Sequence record: MK327943.1
Source: Escherichia phage vB_EcoM_G53
DNA: 64,000 nucleotides
Direction: 5' to 3' (one strand)
The first letter of the stretch is position 1. Every line of letters begins with the position of its first letter. Under the pieces are notes generated by a model. The model saw nothing but the letters and a program-made list of their open reading frames with translations, was not told where the DNA came from and searched no databases. Shown one piece after another: positions 1,264 to 58,619 of the stretch. A program made the position numbers and the translations under genes.

Positions 1264-3589
<2,326 letters not shown>

Positions 3590-6203: not shown

Positions 6204-6251
6204 TCTGGTTGGGGAGAAATCCCCAGCTTCCCGTGATGACGGAGAAGTCCA

Positions 6252-6259
6252 TATAAATA
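6252..6259 (+). promoter_or_regulatory. Late promoter TATAAATA upstream of gene 20
   Basis: Exact TATAAATA 29 nt upstream of gp20 ATG. Confidence 0.5.
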
Positions 6260-6287
6260 TAACTATAATTCCCATTCGGAGAATACA

Positions 6288-7859
6288 ATGAAATTTAATA
6301 TCTTAAGTTTGTTTGCTCCATGGGCAAAAATGGACGAACGTGATTACAAAGACCAAGAAAAAGAAAATTTAGAATCTATCACCGCACCAAAATTGGACGA
6401 CGGCGCTAAAGAATACGAAGTATCTGAAAATGAAGCACAGCAAACATATAATGCTATGTTTCAGAGAATGTTCGGTAGTCAAGAACCAGGGCTCAAATCA
6501 ACCCGTGAATTAATCGATACGTATCGAAATTTGATGACGAACTATGAAGTGGATAATGCAGTCTCTGAAATAGTTTCTGATGCTATCGTATATGAAGATG
6601 ATACAGAAGTCGTTTCTATAAATTTAGACAACACAAAATTTAGTCCAAATATAAAATCAATGATGTTGGATGAATTTAACGAAGTGTTGAATCATTTATC
6701 TTTCCAACGTAAAGGTTCAGACCATTTTAGGCGTTGGTATGTAGATTCTCGAATTTTCTTCCATAAAATTATTGACCCTAAACGCCCTAAAGAAGGTATT
6801 AAAGAGCTTCGTCGTTTAGACCCACGCCAAGTTCAATATGTCCGTGAAGTTATTACAACCACTGAAGCCGGTGTTAAAATAGTCAAGGGTTATAAAGAAT
6901 ATTTCATTTATGACACATCACACGAATCTTATGCTTGTGATGGTCGCATATATGAAGCTGGCACAAAAATAAAAATCCCTAAAGCCGCGATTGTTTATGC
7001 CCATTCTGGTTTAGTTGATTGTTGTGGTAAAAATATCATTGGTTATTTGCATCGGGCTATTAAGCCGGCGAACCAATTAAAACTTCTTGAAGATGCCGTT
7101 GTAATTTATCGTATTACTCGTGCTCCAGATCGTCGTGTATGGTACGTTGATACAGGTAATATGCCTTCAAGAAAAGCAGCAGAACATATGCAACATGTTA
7201 TGAATACGATGAAAAACCGTATTGCATATGATGCTACTACAGGCAAGATTAAAAACCAGCAGCATATTATGTCGATGACCGAAGATTATTGGTTACAACG
7301 ACGTGATGGTAAAGCAGTAACAGAAGTTGATACATTACCAGGTGCAGATAATACTGGAAATATGGAAGATGTACGTTGGTTCCGTAATGCGCTTTATATG
7401 GCTTTACGTATTCCTATTACCCGTATTCCAAGTGACCAAGGTGGTATACAGTTTGATGCTGGTACTTCTATTACACGAGATGAATTGTCGTTTGGTAAAT
7501 TTATTCGTGAGCTGCAACATAAATTTGAAGAGATATTCCTAGACCCGCTTAAAACTAATTTAATTCTTAAAGGAATTATTACAGAAGATGAGTGGAATGA
7601 TGAAATAAATAATATTAAGATAAAATTTCATCGGGATAGTTATTTCTCGGAATTAAAGGATGCTGAGATTCTGGAGCGCCGCATTAATATGCTTCAGATG
7701 GCCGAACCATTTATTGGTAAATATATTTCTCACAGAACAGCTATGAAAGATATTCTTCAGATGTCTGACGAGGAAATTGAACAAGAGGCTAAGCAAATTG
7801 AAGAAGAGTCGAAAGAGGCTCGTTTCCAAGACCCCGACCAAGAACAAGAGGATTTTTAA
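6288..7859 (+). CDS. 20: Portal vertex protein gp20
   Basis: 523 aa (T4 524); synteny. Confidence 0.95.
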
Positions 7860-10024: not shown

Positions 10025-11593
10025 ATGACTACTATCAAAACTAAAGCTCAGCTCGTAGACAAATGGAAAGAACTGCTGGAAGGTGAAGGCCTGCCGGAAA
10101 TCGCTAATAGCAAGCAGGCTATTATCGCTAAAATCTTCGAAAACCAGGAAAAAGATTTCGAAGTATCCCCTGAATATAAAGACGAGAAAATCGCTCAGGC
10201 ATTTGGTTCTTTCTTGACCGAAGCTGAAATTGGTGGTGACCATGGTTATAATGCTCAGAACATCGCAGCAGGTCAAACCTCTGGTGCAGTAACCCAAATT
10301 GGGCCGGCAGTTATGGGTATGGTTCGTCGTGCTATTCCTAATCTGATCGCCTTTGATATTTGTGGTGTTCAGCCTATGAACAGCCCGACCGGTCAGGTAT
10401 TTGCTCTCCGTGCAGTATATGGTAAAGACCCTATCGCTGCTGGCGCTAAAGAAGCTTTCCATCCGATGTATGCCCCAGACGCGATGTTCTCTGGTCAGGG
10501 TGCTGCTAAGAAATTCCCAGCTCTGGCTGCTGACACTACTACTGTTGTAGGTGATATCTATACTCACTTCTTCCAAGAAACTGGTACTGTATATCTGCAA
10601 GCTTCTGCTATCGTAACACTTGATTCTGGTGCAACTGATGCAGCTAAATTAGATGCAGAAGTTAAGAAACAAATGGAAGCTGGTGCACTGGTAGAAATCG
10701 CTGAAGGTATGGCTACTTCTATCGCTGAACTCCAGGAAGGTTTCAACGGTTCTACCGATAACCCATGGAATGAAATGGGCTTCCGTATCGACAAACAAGT
10801 TATTGAAGCTAAATCTCGTCAGCTGAAAGCAGCTTACTCCATAGAATTGGCACAAGACCTCCGTGCAGTACACGGTATGGATGCTGATGCTGAACTGAGC
10901 GGTATTCTGGCTACAGAAATTATGCTAGAAATCAACCGTGAAGTTGTTGATTGGATTAACTACTCTGCACAGGTTGGTAAATCTGGTATGACCCTGACTC
11001 CGGGTTCTAAAGCTGGTGTATTTGACTTCCAGGACCCGATTGATATCCGTGGTGCTCGTTGGGCCGGTGAAAGCTTTAAATCTCTGTTGTTCCAGATTGA
11101 TAAAGAAGCAGTTGAAATTGCTCGTCAAACCGGTCGTGGTGAAGGTAACTTCATTATCGCTTCCCGTAACGTAGTTAACGTACTGGCTTCAGTTGATACT
11201 GGTATTTCTTACGCTGCACAGGGTCTGGCTTCTGGTTTTAATACCGACACTACTAAGTCTGTATTTGCCGGTGTACTTGGTGGTAAATACCGCGTATACA
11301 TCGACCAGTATGCTAAACAGGATTACTTCACCGTTGGTTACAAAGGCGCTAACGAAATGGATGCAGGTATTTACTATGCTCCTTACGTTGCACTTACCCC
11401 ACTGCGTGGTTCCGATCCTAAGAACTTCCAGCCGGTAATGGGCTTTAAAACTCGTTATGGTATCGGTGTTAACCCGTTTGCTGAAAGTTCCCTGCAGGCT
11501 CCAGGTGCTCGCATCCAGTCCGGTATGCCGTCTATCCTGAACAGCCTTGGTAAGAATGCTTACTTCCGCCGTGTATATGTAAAAGGCATCTAA
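10025..11593 (+). CDS. 23: Major capsid protein gp23
   Basis: 522 aa; near-identical over long stretches to T4 gp23 as recalled. Confidence 0.97.
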   Translation: MTTIKTKAQLVDKWKELLEGEGLPEIANSKQAIIAKIFENQEKDFEVSPEYKDEKIAQAFGSFLTEAEIGGDHGYNAQNIAAGQTSGAVTQIGPAVMGMVRRAIPNLIAFDICGVQPMNSPTGQVFALRAVYGKDPIAAGAKEAFHPMYAPDAMFSGQGAAKKFPALAADTTTVVGDIYTHFFQETGTVYLQASAIVTLDSGATDAAKLDAEVKKQMEAGALVEIAEGMATSIAELQEGFNGSTDNPWNEMGFRIDKQVIEAKSRQLKAAYSIELAQDLRAVHGMDADAELSGILATEIMLEINREVVDWINYSAQVGKSGMTLTPGSKAGVFDFQDPIDIRGARWAGESFKSLLFQIDKEAVEIARQTGRGEGNFIIASRNVVNVLASVDTGISYAAQGLASGFNTDTTKSVFAGVLGGKYRVYIDQYAKQDYFTVGYKGANEMDAGIYYAPYVALTPLRGSDPKNFQPVMGFKTRYGIGVNPFAESSLQAPGARIQSGMPSILNSLGKNAYFRRVYVKGI

Positions 11594-11617
11594 TCTTAAT
11601 TGATTAAATCTTATTTT

Positions 11618-11645
11618 GGGAGACTTCGGTCTCCCATTTTTGGTT
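11618..11645 (+). terminator. Intrinsic terminator: gggagac-UUCG-gtctccc hairpin plus T-tract, after gene 23
   Basis: Perfect 7-bp stem with UUCG tetraloop followed by TTTTTGGTTTT; the convergent minus ORF ends right beside it. Confidence 0.7.
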
Positions 11646-11915
11646 TTATTTCTGTGCAATTTCGATGTAAGTTTTCAAAATATTTTGCCAATTAGGCATA
11701 CCTTCTTGGACATATGCCGGAGAACCGTCTTTGTTTTTGAATGATGCAAGTTTATCAGTGGCCCAATAACCTTTAGCTCGAGCTTCAGAATCAACTTTCA
11801 TCCATACTTTGTTGAAGGCATTACCATTAACTTTTGCACCATATTTTTCTACTAACTTAACTGCTTCAGCTTCCAGAACTTTTAAAGTATCTCGTAAGAA
11901 ACGTGCTTTAGTCAT
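11646..11915 (-). CDS. Hypothetical 89-aa protein, antisense to the structural operon
   Basis: ORF with SD (aggag), its own upstream promoter motif and the shared hairpin downstream. Confidence 0.5.
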   Translation of the reverse strand: MTKARFLRDTLKVLEAEAVKLVEKYGAKVNGNAFNKVWMKVDSEARAKGYWATDKLASFKNKDGSPAYVQEGMPNWQNILKTYIEIAQK

Positions 11916-11945
11916 TTTGTTTACTCCTCTGTAGTTGATAAGTCT

Positions 11946-11974
11946 ATAGTATCACATACCAAATACGTTGTAAA
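11946..11974 (-). promoter_or_regulatory. Sigma70-type early promoter (TTTACA-N17-TACTAT) for ORF 11646-11915
   Basis: -35/-10 hexamers with 17-bp spacer about 30 nt upstream of the ATG. Confidence 0.55.
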
Positions 11975-11981
11975 CAATCTT

Positions 11982-11989
11982 TATAAATA
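11982..11989 (+). promoter_or_regulatory. Late promoter TATAAATA upstream of gene 24
   Basis: Exact TATAAATA 28 nt upstream of gp24 ATG. Confidence 0.5.
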
Positions 11990-12016
11990 ATCTATATCAC
12001 ATAAGGAAAAAATGCA

Positions 12017-13300
12017 ATGAGTAAAATCCAAAAATTATTGCGTGAATCTACAACGTCTACTAGCAACTCAATTGGTCGCCCAAATCTCGTTGCTTTGACT
12101 CGCGCTACGACTAAATTAATATATTCTGACATTGTAGCAACACAAAGAACTAATCAACCTGTTGCTGCTTTTTATGGTATCAAATATCTTAACCCGGATA
12201 ATGAATTCACATTTAAAACCGGTGCTACTTATGCTGGCGAAGTTGGATATGTAGACCGAGAAAAAATTACTGAACTCACAGAAGAATCAAAAGTCACACT
12301 AAATAAAGGTGATTTTTTCAAATATAATAATATCGTCTATAAAGTGTTAGAAGATACACCATTTGCAGATATTCAAGAAAGTGATCTAGAATTAGCTCTT
12401 CAGATTGCAGTCGTTCATTTAAAGGTACGGTTATTTTCAGATGCAGCGGTAACAAGCAAATTTGAAAGCTCTGATAGCGAAATTTCTGATGCAAGATTCC
12501 AGATTAATAAATGGCAAACTTCAGTCAAATCTCGCAAACTTAAAACTGGTCTCACGGTTGAATTAGCGCAAGATTTGGAAGCGAATGGATTTGATGCCCC
12601 TAACTTCTTAGAAGATTTGCTTGCTACTGAAATGGCTGATGAAATTAATAAAGATATTCTTCAGTCTTTAATTACTGTATCGAAACGTTATAAAGTTACT
12701 GGAATTACTGACACCGGATTTATTGACTTGAGCTATGCATCCGCTCCAGAAGCAGGTCGTTCATTATATCGAATGGTGTGTGAAATGGTATCACACATTC
12801 AAAAAGAGACAACTTATACTGCAACGTTTTGTGTAGCCTCAGCTCGTGCAGCTGCTATTCTTGCTGCTTCTGGTTGGTTAAAACATAAGCCAGAAGATGA
12901 CAAGTATCTTTCACAAAATGCTTATGGATTCTTGGCAAATGGATTACCTCTTTACTGCGATACCAACAGTCCGTTAGATTATGTTATTGTGGGTGTTGTA
13001 GAAAATATCGGCGAAAAAGAAATTGTAGGGTCCATCTTTTATGCTCCATACACTGAAGGAGTAGATTTAGATGACCCGGAACATGTCGGTGCATTTAAAG
13101 TTGTAGTTGATCCGGAAAGTTTGCAACCGTCTATCGGATTATTGGTTAGATATGCTTTATCAGCAAATCCTTACACAGTAGCAAAAGACGAAAAAGAAGC
13201 GAGAATAATTGATGGCGGGGACATGGATAAAATGGCGGGACGTTCAGATTTGTCTGTTTTATTAGGTGTTAAGCTACCAAAAATTATTGTTGATGAATAA
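12017..13300 (+). CDS. 24: Head vertex protein gp24
   Basis: 427 aa as T4 gp24; paralogous to gp23; synteny. Confidence 0.9.
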   Translation: MSKIQKLLRESTTSTSNSIGRPNLVALTRATTKLIYSDIVATQRTNQPVAAFYGIKYLNPDNEFTFKTGATYAGEVGYVDREKITELTEESKVTLNKGDFFKYNNIVYKVLEDTPFADIQESDLELALQIAVVHLKVRLFSDAAVTSKFESSDSEISDARFQINKWQTSVKSRKLKTGLTVELAQDLEANGFDAPNFLEDLLATEMADEINKDILQSLITVSKRYKVTGITDTGFIDLSYASAPEAGRSLYRMVCEMVSHIQKETTYTATFCVASARAAAILAASGWLKHKPEDDKYLSQNAYGFLANGLPLYCDTNSPLDYVIVGVVENIGEKEIVGSIFYAPYTEGVDLDDPEHVGAFKVVVDPESLQPSIGLLVRYALSANPYTVAKDEKEARIIDGGDMDKMAGRSDLSVLLGVKLPKIIVDE

Positions 13301-14699: not shown

Positions 14700-14890
14700 T
14701 TCTTCACCTTTTTGTTAATCAAACGTTTACGGTATACAACTTTTTCTTTTGCTTTAAACTTTGACCGAGCTGTCTCGGCTTTAGTCCATAGTAATCCAAC
14801 TTCTTTAGGTTGTAAACCAATTTTTTGAGCAATTTCTACGAATGAAAATCCCGCCTCATGTAATGTATAAACTTCAACTTCAGCTCTCAT
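14696..14890 (-). CDS. Small HTH-containing protein (T4 24.3 position)
   Basis: HTH-like GFSFVEIAQKIGLQPKEV; track start at 14896 is TTG, ATG at 14890 preferred. Confidence 0.45.
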   Translation of the reverse strand: MRAEVEVYTLHEAGFSFVEIAQKIGLQPKEVGLLWTKAETARSKFKAKEKVVYRKRLINKKVKK

Positions 14891-27566: not shown

Positions 27567-27595
27567 ATAGTATCACACATCCATGTGTTTGTAAA
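27567..27595 (-). promoter_or_regulatory. Early promoter TTTACA-N17-TACTAT
   Basis: Hexamers with 17-bp spacer directly after alt stop; same cassette as other early promoters here. Confidence 0.5.
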
Positions 27596-34993: not shown

Positions 34994-35011
34994 GGGAGAC
35001 CGAAGTCTCCC
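34994..35011 (-). terminator. Terminator: gggagac-UUCG-gtctccc hairpin plus U-tract (minus sense)
   Basis: Same 18-nt hairpin as after genes 23, 32 and 35; minus sense followed by TTTTGTG. Confidence 0.65.
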
Positions 35012-38566: not shown

Positions 38567-38595
38567 ATAGTATCACAACTCCACCATGTTGTAAA
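38567..38595 (-). promoter_or_regulatory. Early promoter TTTACA-N17-TACTAT
   Basis: Hexamers with 17-bp spacer upstream of ORF 38302-38538. Confidence 0.5.
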
Positions 38596-42098: not shown

Positions 42099-42127
42099 AT
42101 AGTATCACCATCCTTGGTGTTTGTAAA
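42099..42127 (-). promoter_or_regulatory. Early promoter TTTACA-N17-TACTAT
   Basis: Hexamers with 17-bp spacer between rnlA stop and alc start. Confidence 0.5.
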
Positions 42128-43282: not shown

Positions 43283-43311
43283 ATTGTACCACAATCCTTG
43301 TGGTATGTAAA
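43283..43311 (-). promoter_or_regulatory. Early promoter TTTACA-N17-TACAAT
   Basis: Hexamers with 17-bp spacer upstream of rnlA. Confidence 0.5.
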
Positions 43312-50270: not shown

Positions 50271-50288
50271 GGGAGACCGAAGTCTCCC
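50271..50288 (-). terminator. Gene 32 terminator: gggagac-UUCG-gtctccc plus U-tract
   Basis: Perfect hairpin about 7 nt past gp32 stop, then TTTTGAG on minus sense. Confidence 0.65.
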
Positions 50289-50294
50289 AATTTA

Positions 50295-58589: not shown

Positions 58590-58594
58590 ATTTA

Positions 58595-58618
58595 GGGAGA
58601 CTTCGGTCTCCCATTTTT
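58595..58618 (+). terminator. Terminator: gggagac-UUCG-gtctccc plus T-tract after gene 35
   Basis: Same 18-nt hairpin as after gene 23, followed by ATTTTTG. Confidence 0.65.
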
Positions 58619-58619
58619 G

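What the first reader, a model, noticed from the sequence alone, without database searches (positions are those of the whole stretch)
11618..11974. Early-promoter-driven antisense ORF between the capsid genes 23 and 24
An 89-aa ORF lies antisense to the late structural operon, with a sigma70-type promoter (11946-11974), an SD, and the gene 23 terminator hairpin immediately after its stop. In T4 this interval holds the homing endonuclease segD as I recall, so it looks like a cargo slot carrying different content here. The protein has no motif I recognise.
Basis: partly seen in the sequence, partly recalled or inferred. Interest (0 to 1): 0.45.

Follow-up and report, generated by a model that had tools for sequence, protein, structure and literature searches.

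The report
Early accessory gene between capsid genes
A real, conserved 89-amino-acid gene of unknown function sits backwards between the two main capsid genes of this T4-like phage, with its own early promoter, in the same swappable slot where phage T4 carries the selfish nuclease gene segD; it is an ordinary kind of phage accessory cassette whose protein has not been characterised.

Summary
The window is Escherichia phage ChristianSchoenbein (Bas46, Mosigvirus). The minus-strand ORF 11646-11915 (89 aa) is annotated there as a hypothetical protein (RB69ORF188c family, phrog_6003).

It is a real coding gene:
- Syntenic homologues at 31-38% identity lie between genes 23 and 24 in Dhakavirus and Gaprivervirus.
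- dN/dS is 0.12-0.25.
- AlphaFold gives a confident model (pLDDT 89-92).
- Distant homologues occur in unrelated phages.

Its promoter (GTTTACA-17-TACTAT, 11975-11946) is well supported:
- It matches the published T-even early-promoter consensus exactly.
- It belongs to a motif family with 8 sites against 0.4 expected, 7 of them on the minus strand.
- Relatives keep the hexamers and the spacing while the spacer sequence diverges.

The 23-24 gap is a true variable slot. It is empty in T2 and most other genera, holds this ORF here, holds ORF plus segD in LF82-1-type phages, and holds segD alone in T4. T4 keeps the same promoter, and its segD is transcribed early.

The protein is basic (pI about 9.6), with two helices, a beta-hairpin and a third helix. 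It has no sequence or fold relatives of known function. Most likely it is a dispensable early accessory factor that binds a host macromolecule. That function is inferred, not shown. The cassette is a known kind, and interest is modest.

The parts
11646..11915 (-). Protein-coding gene, 89 aa (bas46_0011; RB69ORF188c / phrog_6003 family). The product is a small basic protein predicted as helix-helix-beta hairpin-helix.
   Evidence: ORF list. Annotated CDS in the 100%-identical record MZ501056. phrog_6003 match at E 2e-45. Homologues in 240 phage records. dN/dS 0.12-0.25. AF2 pLDDT 88.7.
11924..11927 (-). Shine-Dalgarno GGAG, 8 nt upstream of the ATG.
   Evidence: Read from the sequence. GGAG is kept at the same distance in all Tevenvirinae orthologues.
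11939..11940 (-). Predicted transcription start, about 7 nt after the -10 hexamer. Inferred only.
   Evidence: Inference from promoter geometry. Not measured.
11946..11975 (-). T-even early (sigma-70) promoter: G-TTTACA (-35), 17-nt spacer with TG at 11954-11953, TACTAT (-10).
   Evidence: Scanner hit with 9 of 12 matches plus TG. Exact match to TTTACW-N17-TAYWAT, with 8 sites against 0.41 expected and 7 on the minus strand. Hexamers and 17-nt spacing are conserved with divergent spacers in VR7, JS98, L013, L014, L016, L017 and upstream of T4 segD.
11982..11989 (+). Late promoter TATAAATA of gene 24, back-to-back with the early promoter. On the minus strand it doubles as the A/T-rich stretch upstream of the -35.
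   Evidence: Read from the sequence. The same TATAAATA precedes gene 24 in the empty slots of T2 and Klebsiella phage UTI-K1. The identity of TATAAATA as the T4 late promoter rests on established knowledge.
11617..11649 (+). Gene 23 intrinsic terminator. The hairpin GGGAGAC-TTCG-GTCTCCC is followed by ATTTTTGGTTTTA, and this T-tract overlaps the ORF's stop codon. On the minus strand it forms a stable 3' hairpin without a U-tract.
   Evidence: Terminator scan. Fold energies are -16.8 kcal/mol (+) and -13.5 kcal/mol (-), with z-scores of -3.5 and -4.3. It is annotated as a terminator in PhAPEC2.
10025..11593 (+). Gene 23 (major capsid protein), the left boundary of the slot. Context only.
12017..13300 (+). 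Gene 24 (capsid vertex protein), the right boundary of the slot. Context only.

Best explanation
This is a self-contained early transcription unit: promoter, leader with SD, an 89-codon gene and a hairpin. It is inserted backwards between the gene 23 terminator and the gene 24 late promoter. It is a moron-like or PeSL-type accessory cassette of T-even phages.

Proposed sequence of events:
1. Host sigma-70 RNA polymerase starts at the GTTTACA-17-TACTAT promoter in the first minutes of infection.
2. It transcribes the gene away from gene 24 and towards the 3' end of gene 23.
3. The message is translated from a good SD.
4. The message ends at, or is stabilised by, the shared hairpin.

The product is a soluble, cysteine-free, basic protein (pI about 9.6) predicted to fold as two long helices, a beta-hairpin and a C-terminal helix. 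The most likely mode of action is stoichiometric binding to a host, or host-defence, macromolecule early in infection, as a host-takeover or counter-defence accessory factor. The gene is dispensable for basic growth.

The slot is a recombination hotspot. Conserved flanks (promoter and leader on one side, hairpin on the other) allow the cargo to be exchanged, and the homing endonuclease gene segD rides in the same unit in some phages.

What is shown: the anatomy, coding conservation, promoter family membership and conservation, slot variability, and lack of known relatives.

What is inferred: early timing in this phage, the termination mode, and the whole biochemical function.

Approximate sub-confidences:
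- Real expressed early accessory gene: 0.9.
- Acts by binding a host or defence macromolecule: 0.45.
For: Coding:
- Syntenic antisense homologues lie between genes 23 and 24 in VR7 and JS98 at 31-38% aa identity and the same length.
- dN/dS is 0.13 (JS98 vs LF82-1), 0.12-0.25 (vs P0015) and 0.16 (window vs P0006). In most other pairs synonymous sites are saturated while the protein stays alignable.
- AF2 gives confident models with the same topology for the window protein (pLDDT 88.7) and for a distant member (pLDDT 92.5).

Promoter:
- It is an exact match to the published PST/T4 early-promoter consensus TTTACW-N17-TAYWAT (PMC4122927).
- There are 8 sites in the window against 0.41 expected, 7 of them on the minus strand. 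Most are followed, after a leader that is similar in several of them, by an SD and the ATG of an ORF.
- Hexamers and the 17-nt spacing are kept while spacers diverge in 7 other lineages, including upstream of T4 segD.
- T4 segD, which sits behind the homologous promoter, is classed as early RNA and its protein is detected by mass spectrometry (PMC9697503 supplement).

Autonomous accessory cassette:
- The slot is an 83-nt empty gap, with only the terminator and TATAAATA and no antisense promoter, in T2, RB32, Jiaodavirus and others.
- Homologues occur in non-syntenic contexts: a Vequintavirinae phage (ABPH49, and probably the L006 contig), a siphovirus-like contig related to Serratia phages next to a J-like tail-tip gene, and another T-even-like small-gene array. 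In the metagenomic contigs (L006, L007, L015) I read a promoter-like element upstream. In L006, L007 and ABPH49 I read a GC-rich hairpin just after the stop.

Dispensability:
- The gene is frameshifted or split in the RB69 reference, in mogra and in 310Ecol104PP.

Cargo exchange:
- LF82-1 has a Mosigvirus backbone (95-98% identical to the window on both sides). It carries a Dhakavirus-type allele plus a SegD orthologue between the SD and the terminator.

Protein properties:
- pI 9.5-9.9 in 11 of 12 members, no Cys, hydrophilic.
Against: - No transcript, protein or phenotype data exist for this gene in any phage that I could find.
- The function rests on analogy with other small early T-even proteins. 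Nothing in sequence or structure points to a specific partner.
  - Pfam gives only sub-threshold noise.
  - PADLOC and NCBIfam give nothing.
  - The PDB profile search gives nothing significant.
  - Foldseek against PDB gives nothing below E 0.39.
  - BFVD returns only a family member.
- The consistently basic charge fits nucleic-acid binding at least as well as protein binding.
- The hairpin lacks a U-tract on the ORF's strand, so termination is uncertain.
- The 'early' class in the T4 dataset is lenient (215 genes), and I did not confirm that the RNA-seq was strand-specific.
Confidence: 0.55

Rival explanations
1. The protein is a small nucleic-acid-binding factor. It would bind DNA or RNA and act on host nucleoid or transcripts, or on phage gene expression, rather than bind a protein target.
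For: - Net charge is +4 to +7 and pI is 9.5-9.9 in 11 of 12 family members.
- The protein is small, helical and expressed early.
- Other T4 early proteins such as MotB bind DNA non-specifically (PMC7827196, abstract listed).
Against: - The H-H-beta-beta-H topology is not that of the common small DNA binders.
- One member (P0021) is nearly neutral, with pI 8.0.
Confidence: 0.2
2. The unit matters at the RNA or transcription level and the peptide is incidental. Early antisense transcription across the 23-24 junction would insulate or repress leaky capsid-gene expression.
For: - The transcript converges on the 3' end of gene 23.
- It lacks a canonical terminator on its own strand, so read-through antisense RNA to gene 23 is plausible.
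- The promoter is retained in T4 even though the cargo differs.
Against: - There is strong purifying selection on the amino-acid sequence.
- The fold is confidently predicted and conserved.
- The same protein is found in unrelated phages, away from any capsid gene.
- Most T4-like phages do without any antisense unit here.
- There is no Rfam match.
Confidence: 0.05
3. The gene is functionally tied to the homing endonuclease SegD, as a helper, an immunity factor or a carrier of its target site, and is a remnant of a segD cassette.
For: - In LF82-1, AV109, F2 and relatives the ORF is followed 3 nt later by a SegD orthologue (57% identity to T4 SegD, E 3e-86). The two appear to form one operon.
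- T4 has segD behind the same promoter.
Against: - About 240 phage records carry the ORF, and most have no segD next to it.
- T4 has segD without the ORF.
- Homologues in Vequintavirinae and in the siphovirus-like contig have no nuclease neighbour.
- The simplest reading is that segD invaded an existing unit.
Confidence: 0.05
4. It is a minor capsid or assembly accessory protein, as its position between genes 23 and 24 might suggest.
For: Its location is inside the head-gene cluster.
Against: - It has the opposite orientation to the late operon.
- It has an early-type rather than a late (TATAAATA) promoter.
- The PhAPEC2 annotation flags gp22, gp23 and gp24 as structural virion proteins but not this ORF.
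- Homologues in other phages lie in small-gene arrays, not head modules.
- The slot is empty in most relatives with the same capsid.
Confidence: 0.03
5. It is a chance ORF or a dead remnant with no function.
For: - It is broken in a few genomes: the RB69 reference, mogra and 310Ecol104PP.
- No function is known.
Against: - It is intact over its full length in about 238 of 240 records.
- dN/dS is well below 1.
- The promoter and SD are conserved.
- The fold is confidently predicted.
Confidence: 0.02

Closest known systems
PeSL (promoter-early stem-loop) bounded accessory ORFs of T4-type phages (Arbiol et al. 2010, PMC2839356; Comeau et al. 2014, PMC4122927)
   Same: - A strong sigma-70-type early promoter and a stable stem-loop bracket a small gene of unknown function.
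- The promoter matches the published PST/T4 PeSL consensus TTTACW-N17-TAYWAT exactly.
- Both the promoter type (8 copies) and the hairpin sequence (4 copies) are repeated in the genome.
- Cargo differs between close relatives, with junctions at these elements.
- The papers note that the few PeSLs inside virion modules are almost always next to genes of unknown function.
   Different: - Here the promoter and stem-loop are at opposite ends of the gene rather than fused into one composite intergenic motif.
- The stem-loop is primarily the gene 23 terminator.
- A spacer stem-loop, seen in several other promoters of this window, is weak here (-2.7 kcal/mol) and absent in orthologues.
- Mini-circle formation was not testable.
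T4 segD locus (free-standing GIY-YIG homing endonuclease between genes 23 and 24)
   Same: - It occupies the same slot, with the same antisense orientation.
- It has a homologous upstream promoter and leader (ATTTACA-17-TATTAT, GGAG) and a homologous downstream hairpin.
- In LF82-1-type phages both genes share the unit.
   Different: - The 89-aa protein has no GIY-YIG motif and no similarity to SegD. tblastn finds no T4 hit and Pfam finds nothing.
- It is a different cargo, not a nuclease.
Morons of lambdoid and other phages (autonomous promoter-gene-terminator units inserted between genes of an operon)
   Same: - It is a self-contained unit inserted between two adjacent genes of the late head operon.
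- It is absent from close relatives.
- It is transcribed independently of its neighbours.
   Different: - Classical morons are expressed from prophages and benefit the lysogen.
- This one is in a strictly lytic phage and is expected to act early in infection.
phrog_6003 / RB69ORF188c-JS98 orf173-VR7ORF190c hypothetical proteins
   Same: Full-length match (E 2e-45, positions 1-89 of the protein to 1-90 of the 90-position profile). The PhAPEC2 annotation names RB69ORF188c as its relative.
   Different: Nothing differs. The window protein is a member of this family. The family has no assigned function.

Membership tests
phrog_6003 (RB69ORF188c family) | Full-length significant match to the family profile | tested here: met
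   E 2.1e-45, 153.6 bits, residues 1-89 on profile positions 1-90 of 90.
phrog_6003 (RB69ORF188c family) | Conserved core residues shared by all members | tested here: met
   K3, F6, G31, N32, N35 and Q70 are invariant. L14, L21, N30 and A45 are near-invariant. Positions 51 and 76 are always aromatic, across 12-15 members including distant ones.
T-even early (sigma-70) promoter | Sequence TTTACW-N17-TAYWAT (PST/T4 consensus, PMC4122927) | tested here: met
   GTTTACA-17-TACTAT at 11975-11946. It is one of 8 exact sites against 0.41 expected.
T-even early (sigma-70) promoter | Orientation and position upstream of a gene on the early-transcribed strand, with a leader and SD | tested here: met
   Seven of 8 sites are on the minus strand. 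Most of these, including this one, are followed by an SD and an ATG about 30-40 nt after the -10.
T-even early (sigma-70) promoter | Transcription initiation by unmodified host RNA polymerase within the first minutes of infection | not testable with these tools
   There is only indirect evidence. T4 segD, behind the homologous promoter, is classed as early RNA (PMC9697503 supplement).
PeSL cassette | Composite of an early promoter and a stem-loop, repeated in the genome | tested here: inconclusive
   Both components are present and each is repeated. However, they flank the ORF instead of forming one composite motif, and the spacer stem-loop is weak.
PeSL cassette | Association with indels or replacements between close relatives, with junctions at the elements | tested here: met
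   The slot occurs empty, with the ORF, with ORF plus segD, and with segD alone. The LF82-1 swap junctions lie at the SD and within about 70 nt past the segD stop. T4 and L016 flanks align up to the cargo on both sides.
PeSL cassette | Formation of excised mini-circles | not testable with these tools
   This requires PCR or sequencing of phage DNA (PMC2839356).
GIY-YIG homing endonuclease (SegD-like) | GIY-YIG catalytic domain, or similarity to SegD | tested here: not met
   There is no Pfam hit above threshold. No T4 record appears among the tblastn hits. At 89 aa against 223 aa, it is not a member.
Known anti-phage defence components (PADLOC-DB) | Profile match to a described family | tested here: not met
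   PADLOC gives no hit for the window protein and only noise for relatives. PADLOC covers defence systems, not phage counter-defence proteins, for which I had no dedicated library.
Moron | Own promoter and terminator, inserted between adjacent genes, absent from close relatives | tested here: met
   Anatomy. Empty slot in T2, RB32 and others. Function in a lysogen is not applicable.

The most novel reading that the evidence does not exclude
The 89-aa protein is the founding member of a new-fold family of small basic phage proteins. The family has spread among T-even phages, a Vequintavirinae phage and a siphovirus-like phage of enterobacteria on promoter-equipped cassettes. It neutralises a specific host defence or hijacks a specific host factor early in infection. 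The fast divergence of its alleles (about 33% identity between genera whose flanking capsid genes are about 80-85% identical at the DNA level) would then reflect an arms race.
Probability: 0.25. Interest if true: 0.55.

Novelty: new member of a known kind. Interest (0 to 1): 0.3.

Why it matters
- It adds a well-delimited example of how T-even phages keep swappable early accessory genes even inside the conserved head-gene block. The promoter and hairpin flanks persist while the cargo changes: nothing, this ORF, ORF plus segD, or segD alone.
- It gives T4 segD a plausible promoter. A 2010 review said none could be found, yet later omics data show early expression.
- The protein is a clean candidate for functional screens. 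It is small, soluble, confidently modelled, without known relatives, present in BASEL-collection phages and naturally knocked out in some isolates.
- If it proves to be a counter-defence or takeover factor, it would be a new family. Otherwise it is one more uncharacterised accessory gene.

Tried and rejected
- **Pfam DUF4859.** The hit (E 0.003, below the cut-off) is matched by only 2 of 14 members, so I treated it as noise.
- **Giant Big_2/LRR and filamin-repeat proteins.** The exhaustive HMM search returned two such proteins (P0022, P0024) with 9-11 weak stretches each. I judged these to be repeat-summed false positives. P0020 is an assembly chimera carrying a family fragment.
- **Structure searches.**
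  - Foldseek against PDB gave nothing better than E 0.39.
  - BFVD returned only a family member.
  - The afdb50 library was not available.
- **Profile searches.** The PDB sequence profile, PADLOC and NCBIfam gave nothing.
- **Rfam** on the slot gave nothing near the gathering scores.
- **Literature.** Searches for RB69ORF188c, locus tags and protein accessions returned zero papers. No Mosigvirus time-resolved transcriptome was found. The Sokolov et al. 2018 SegD paper is not in the library.
- **Spacer stem-loop as a PeSL hallmark.** It is convincing for other promoters of the window but not for this one or its orthologues.
- **Independent acquisition of Mosig-type alleles.** I tested whether they are closer to non-T4 homologues than to Dhaka-type alleles. 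The identities are too similar to decide, so I make no claim.
Full report
**Identity of the window and the feature**

A 601-nt query spanning the finding (window 11500-12100) is 100% identical to Escherichia phage ChristianSchoenbein (Bas46, Mosigvirus phapec2, MZ501056). The local gene order is that of T4: portal, prohead core proteins, protease, scaffold, gene 23, the ORF, gene 24, rnlB, 24.2, 24.3, hoc. The ORF at 11646-11915 (minus strand, 89 aa) is annotated there as hypothetical protein bas46_0011. The PhAPEC2 record describes it as 'similar to RB69ORF188c'.

**Check of the observation**

- The sigma-70-type site is TTTACA-17-TACTAT, with a TG two bases before the -10 hexamer, at 11974-11946.
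- GGAG lies 8 nt before the ATG.
- The hairpin GGGAGAC-TTCG-GTCTCCC (11618-11635) starts 11 nt beyond the stop codon. Its + strand T-run overlaps the stop.

The generic promoter scan is not significant in this AT-rich DNA (2 found, 2.5 expected), so I tested a specific model. Comeau et al. give TTTACW-N17-TAYWAT as the early-promoter consensus of PST/T4 (PMC4122927).

- This pattern occurs 8 times in the 64-kb window against 0.41 expected, and 0 of 100 shuffles reached 8.
- Seven of the 8 sites are on the minus strand, and all seven are preceded by G.
- Most of the minus-strand sites, including this one, are followed by an SD and the ATG of an ORF about 30-40 nt after the -10. Several share a similar leader (..atcaac..GAGGA..).

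The site at 11946-11975 is therefore a typical member of this genome's early-promoter family.

One correction concerns the hairpin. Its U-tract is on the gene 23 strand only. On the ORF's strand the stem (-13.5 kcal/mol, z = -4.3) is followed by AAAAUAAGAUUU.

**Is it a gene?**

Yes.

- tblastn finds the protein in 240 phage records. About 120 are at 80% identity or more (Mosigvirus) and about 120 at 30-38%.
- In VR7 (Gaprivervirus) and JS98 (Dhakavirus) the homologue lies in the same place and the same antisense orientation between genes 23 and 24.
- Lengths are 84-93 aa. The invariant residues are K3, F6, G31, N32, N35 and Q70.
- Where synonymous sites are not saturated, dN/dS is 0.13 (JS98 vs LF82-1), 0.25 and 0.12 (JS98 and LF82-1 vs P0015) and 0.16 (window vs P0006). 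In most other pairs dS is saturated while the proteins still align.
- AlphaFold2 on 14 sequences gives pLDDT 88.7: helix 3-25, helix 31-48, strands 56-60 and 66-70, helix 76-88.
- A second model, of a distant member, has the same topology at pLDDT 92.5.

**Promoter conservation**

I aligned the upstream regions of eight Tevenvirinae lineages.

- All keep (T)ATTTATAAA, then GTTTACA (GGTGTACA in one lineage, ATTTACA in T4), then exactly 17 nt of unrelated sequence.
- All then have TACTAT, TATTAT or CATAAT, followed by a leader and GGAG.

Conserved hexamers and spacing with a free spacer is the footprint expected of a functional promoter.

The TATTTATA just upstream is the reverse complement of TATAAATA (11982-11989, + strand). 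That is the gene 24 late promoter, which also precedes gene 24 in empty slots. The early and late promoters are therefore back-to-back.

**The slot**

I used a 1200-nt query made of the last 600 nt of gene 23 joined to the first 600 nt of gene 24. It matched 1495 phage records, and the span of each joined match gives the gap size.

| Gap size | Cargo | Examples |
|---|---|---|
| about 83 nt | none | T2, RB32, wV7 and most Tequatrovirus; similar in Jiaodavirus, Karamvirus-like, EcS1 and an Acinetobacter phage |
| 423 nt | this ORF | Mosigvirus; about the same in a Dhaka/Gapr-type phage |
| 811 nt | segD alone | T4-like phages with segD (SHFML-11, BCH953P2; T4 itself) |
| about 1090 nt | ORF plus segD | AV109 |

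- The empty T2 and UTI-K1 gaps contain only the terminator hairpin, its T-tract and TATAAATA. They have no antisense -35 or -10. The antisense promoter therefore belongs to the insert.
- In T4, segD lies in the same orientation. It is preceded by ATTTACA-17-TATTAT and GGAG.
- The metagenomic locus L016 carries the ORF. Its flanks align to T4 up to 16 nt before the ORF's ATG (7 nt before segD's) on one side, and from the stop codon on the other.
- A 2010 review states that no segD-specific promoter could be identified and that transcript levels might be vanishingly low (PMC2988022).
- In contrast, the 2022 time-resolved omics study lists segD as 'early-RNA_middle-Protein', with SegD intensities rising from the first post-infection time points (PMC9697503 supplement files 4-6).
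- That early class is broad (215 genes), and I did not confirm that the RNA-seq was strand-specific. Still, it shows that the homologous unit is expressed.

**Cargo exchange caught in the act**

- Phage LF82-1 is 94.6% and 97.6% identical to the window on the two sides of the slot.
- Between the SD and a point within about 70 nt past the next stop codon it carries something else.
- That cargo is a Dhakavirus-type allele of the ORF (82% nt identity to JS98). It is followed 3 nt later by a 219-aa SegD orthologue (57% identity to T4 SegD, E 3e-86).
- The promoter and leader of LF82-1 are identical to those of the window up to the SD.
- This fits recombination in the conserved flanks, possibly driven by the endonuclease.

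**Distribution outside the slot**

- Two searches of very large protein collections find only about 20 clusters.
- An exhaustive HMM search of 1.84 billion representatives finds 9 hits.
- True distant members are P0021 and P0023.
  - P0021 is 61% identical to a protein of the Vequintavirinae phage ABPH49. It sits in an array of small genes.
  - P0023 is on a siphovirus-like contig related to Serratia phages, just after a J-like tail-tip gene.
- P0014 is a Dhaka-type allele inside a different T-even-like array of small genes. The next gene in that array has its own GTTTACA-17-TACTAT promoter.
- In L006, L007 and L015 I read a promoter-like element upstream of the homologue. In L006, L007 and ABPH49 a GC-rich hairpin follows the stop.

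The gene therefore travels as an autonomous unit and is not tied to capsid genes.

**What the protein is**

- No library assigns a function.
  - Pfam gives only a sub-threshold DUF4859 hit, seen in 2 of 14 members.
  - PADLOC and NCBIfam give nothing.
  - The PDB profile search gives nothing significant.
- No library assigns a fold.
  - Foldseek against PDB gives nothing.
  - BFVD returns only a family member.
- Hits of the profile to giant Big_2 and filamin-repeat proteins are repeat-summed artefacts.
- The family is hydrophilic, cysteine-free and basic, with pI 9.5-9.9 in 11 of 12 members. I saw no hydrophobic segment suggestive of a signal peptide or membrane span, but I ran no dedicated predictor.
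- The gene is interrupted by frameshifts in the RB69 reference (annotated as two tiny ORFs, 188c and 189c), in mogra and in 310Ecol104PP. It is therefore dispensable, at least in the laboratory. The RB69 case could also be old sequencing error.

**Most likely mechanism**

Shown:
- It is an autonomous early-type transcription unit.
- It is inserted between the gene 23 terminator and the gene 24 late promoter.
- It encodes a conserved small basic protein, in a slot whose cargo is exchanged through conserved flanks.

Inferred:
- Host RNA polymerase transcribes it in the first minutes of infection.
- The protein acts by binding a host or defence macromolecule, as a host-takeover or counter-defence accessory function. 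This is the common role of small non-essential early T-even proteins (established knowledge, not tested here).

My estimates are about 0.9 that it is an expressed early accessory gene, about 0.45 that it binds a host or defence macromolecule, and about 0.2 that it is primarily a nucleic-acid binder. An RNA-level role, a SegD-linked role, a capsid role and a chance ORF are each unlikely, for the reasons listed under rivals.

**Comparison with known systems**

- The closest described framework is the PeSL concept of Arbiol, Comeau and Krisch. It describes early promoters and stem-loops that bracket ORFans, are repeated in the genome and mediate modular shuffling. The few inside virion modules lie next to genes of unknown function (PMC2839356; PMC4122927).
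- The promoter consensus, the repetition of both elements and the junction positions fit that concept.
- The composite architecture and the spacer stem-loop are not clearly met, and mini-circles could not be tested.
- The unit is also moron-like in anatomy.
- It is not a homing endonuclease.
- It is a member of phrog_6003.

**Verdict**

The thing itself is a known kind of element: an annotated hypothetical gene in more than 200 genomes, carried on a PeSL- or moron-type early cassette. Its protein family is uncharacterised and has no recognisable fold relatives. Interest is modest (0.3).

The useful by-products are a clear description of the 23-24 slot states, a candidate promoter for T4 segD, and a tractable candidate for functional screening.

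Noticed in passing
L005 (T4 NC_000866) 6234-6300, minus strand: T4 segD is preceded by ATTTACA-17-TATTAT plus GGAG. This is homologous to the promoter and leader of the ORF in other genera. A 2010 review (PMC2988022) says no segD promoter could be found, while 2022 omics data class segD as early RNA with the protein detected. The alignment with LF82-1 SegD also suggests the real T4 start may be the second ATG (M4).
   Followed up: partly
L009 (Escherichia phage LF82-1, PV648359) 2494-3500: This is a mosaic. The backbone is Mosigvirus, 95-98% identical to the window. The slot, however, holds a Dhakavirus-type ORF allele plus a SegD orthologue, and the terminator and last gene 23 codons resemble VR7. 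This looks like cassette replacement, possibly homing with co-conversion.
   Followed up: partly
window 11618-11635, 58590-58619, 50271-50290, 34994-35011: The terminator hairpin sequence GGGAGAC-TTCG-GTCTCCC recurs at three other places in the window (18-30 nt matches). This explains the second megablast 'place' seen in most related genomes.
   Followed up: partly
window 27567-27595, 38567-38595, 42099-42127, 43283-43311 (minus strand): Other members of the early-promoter family carry a short stem-loop inside the 17-nt spacer (-3.7 to -8.3 kcal/mol). This is one of the PeSL architectures described for RB49/phi1. Each precedes a minus-strand ORF.
   Followed up: partly
L011 (RB69 AY303349) 873-1113; L018 (mogra) 301-569: The gene is split by frameshifts in the RB69 reference (annotated as ORF188c of 41 aa and ORF189c of 29 aa) and in phage mogra (38 + 51 aa). 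310Ecol104PP is also truncated. These are either natural knock-outs or, for RB69, old sequencing errors.
   Followed up: partly
L003, L004, L013, L014: Gene 24 is tandemly duplicated (24a and 24b) in JS98, VR7 and two metagenomic relatives. The window and T4 have a single copy.
   Followed up: no
P0006 (JGI name); H65 PQ341120 EAWsc9: Family members carry apparent misannotations in public sources: 'NADPH-dependent curcumin reductase CurA' and 'glycosyl hydrolase family 25'.
   Followed up: no
window 11992-12132 (minus strand) and 11616-11744, 11809-11934 (+ strand): Short ORFs of 41-46 aa overlap the gene 24 start or lie antisense to the 89-aa gene. Nothing supports them: they are not annotated in the related records I inspected, and I did not search them for homologues.
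   Followed up: no
window 14788-14816 (minus strand): An exact early-promoter consensus site lies inside the 24.3-like ORF, upstream of the 24.2-like ORF. [quoted passage not shown]
   Followed up: no
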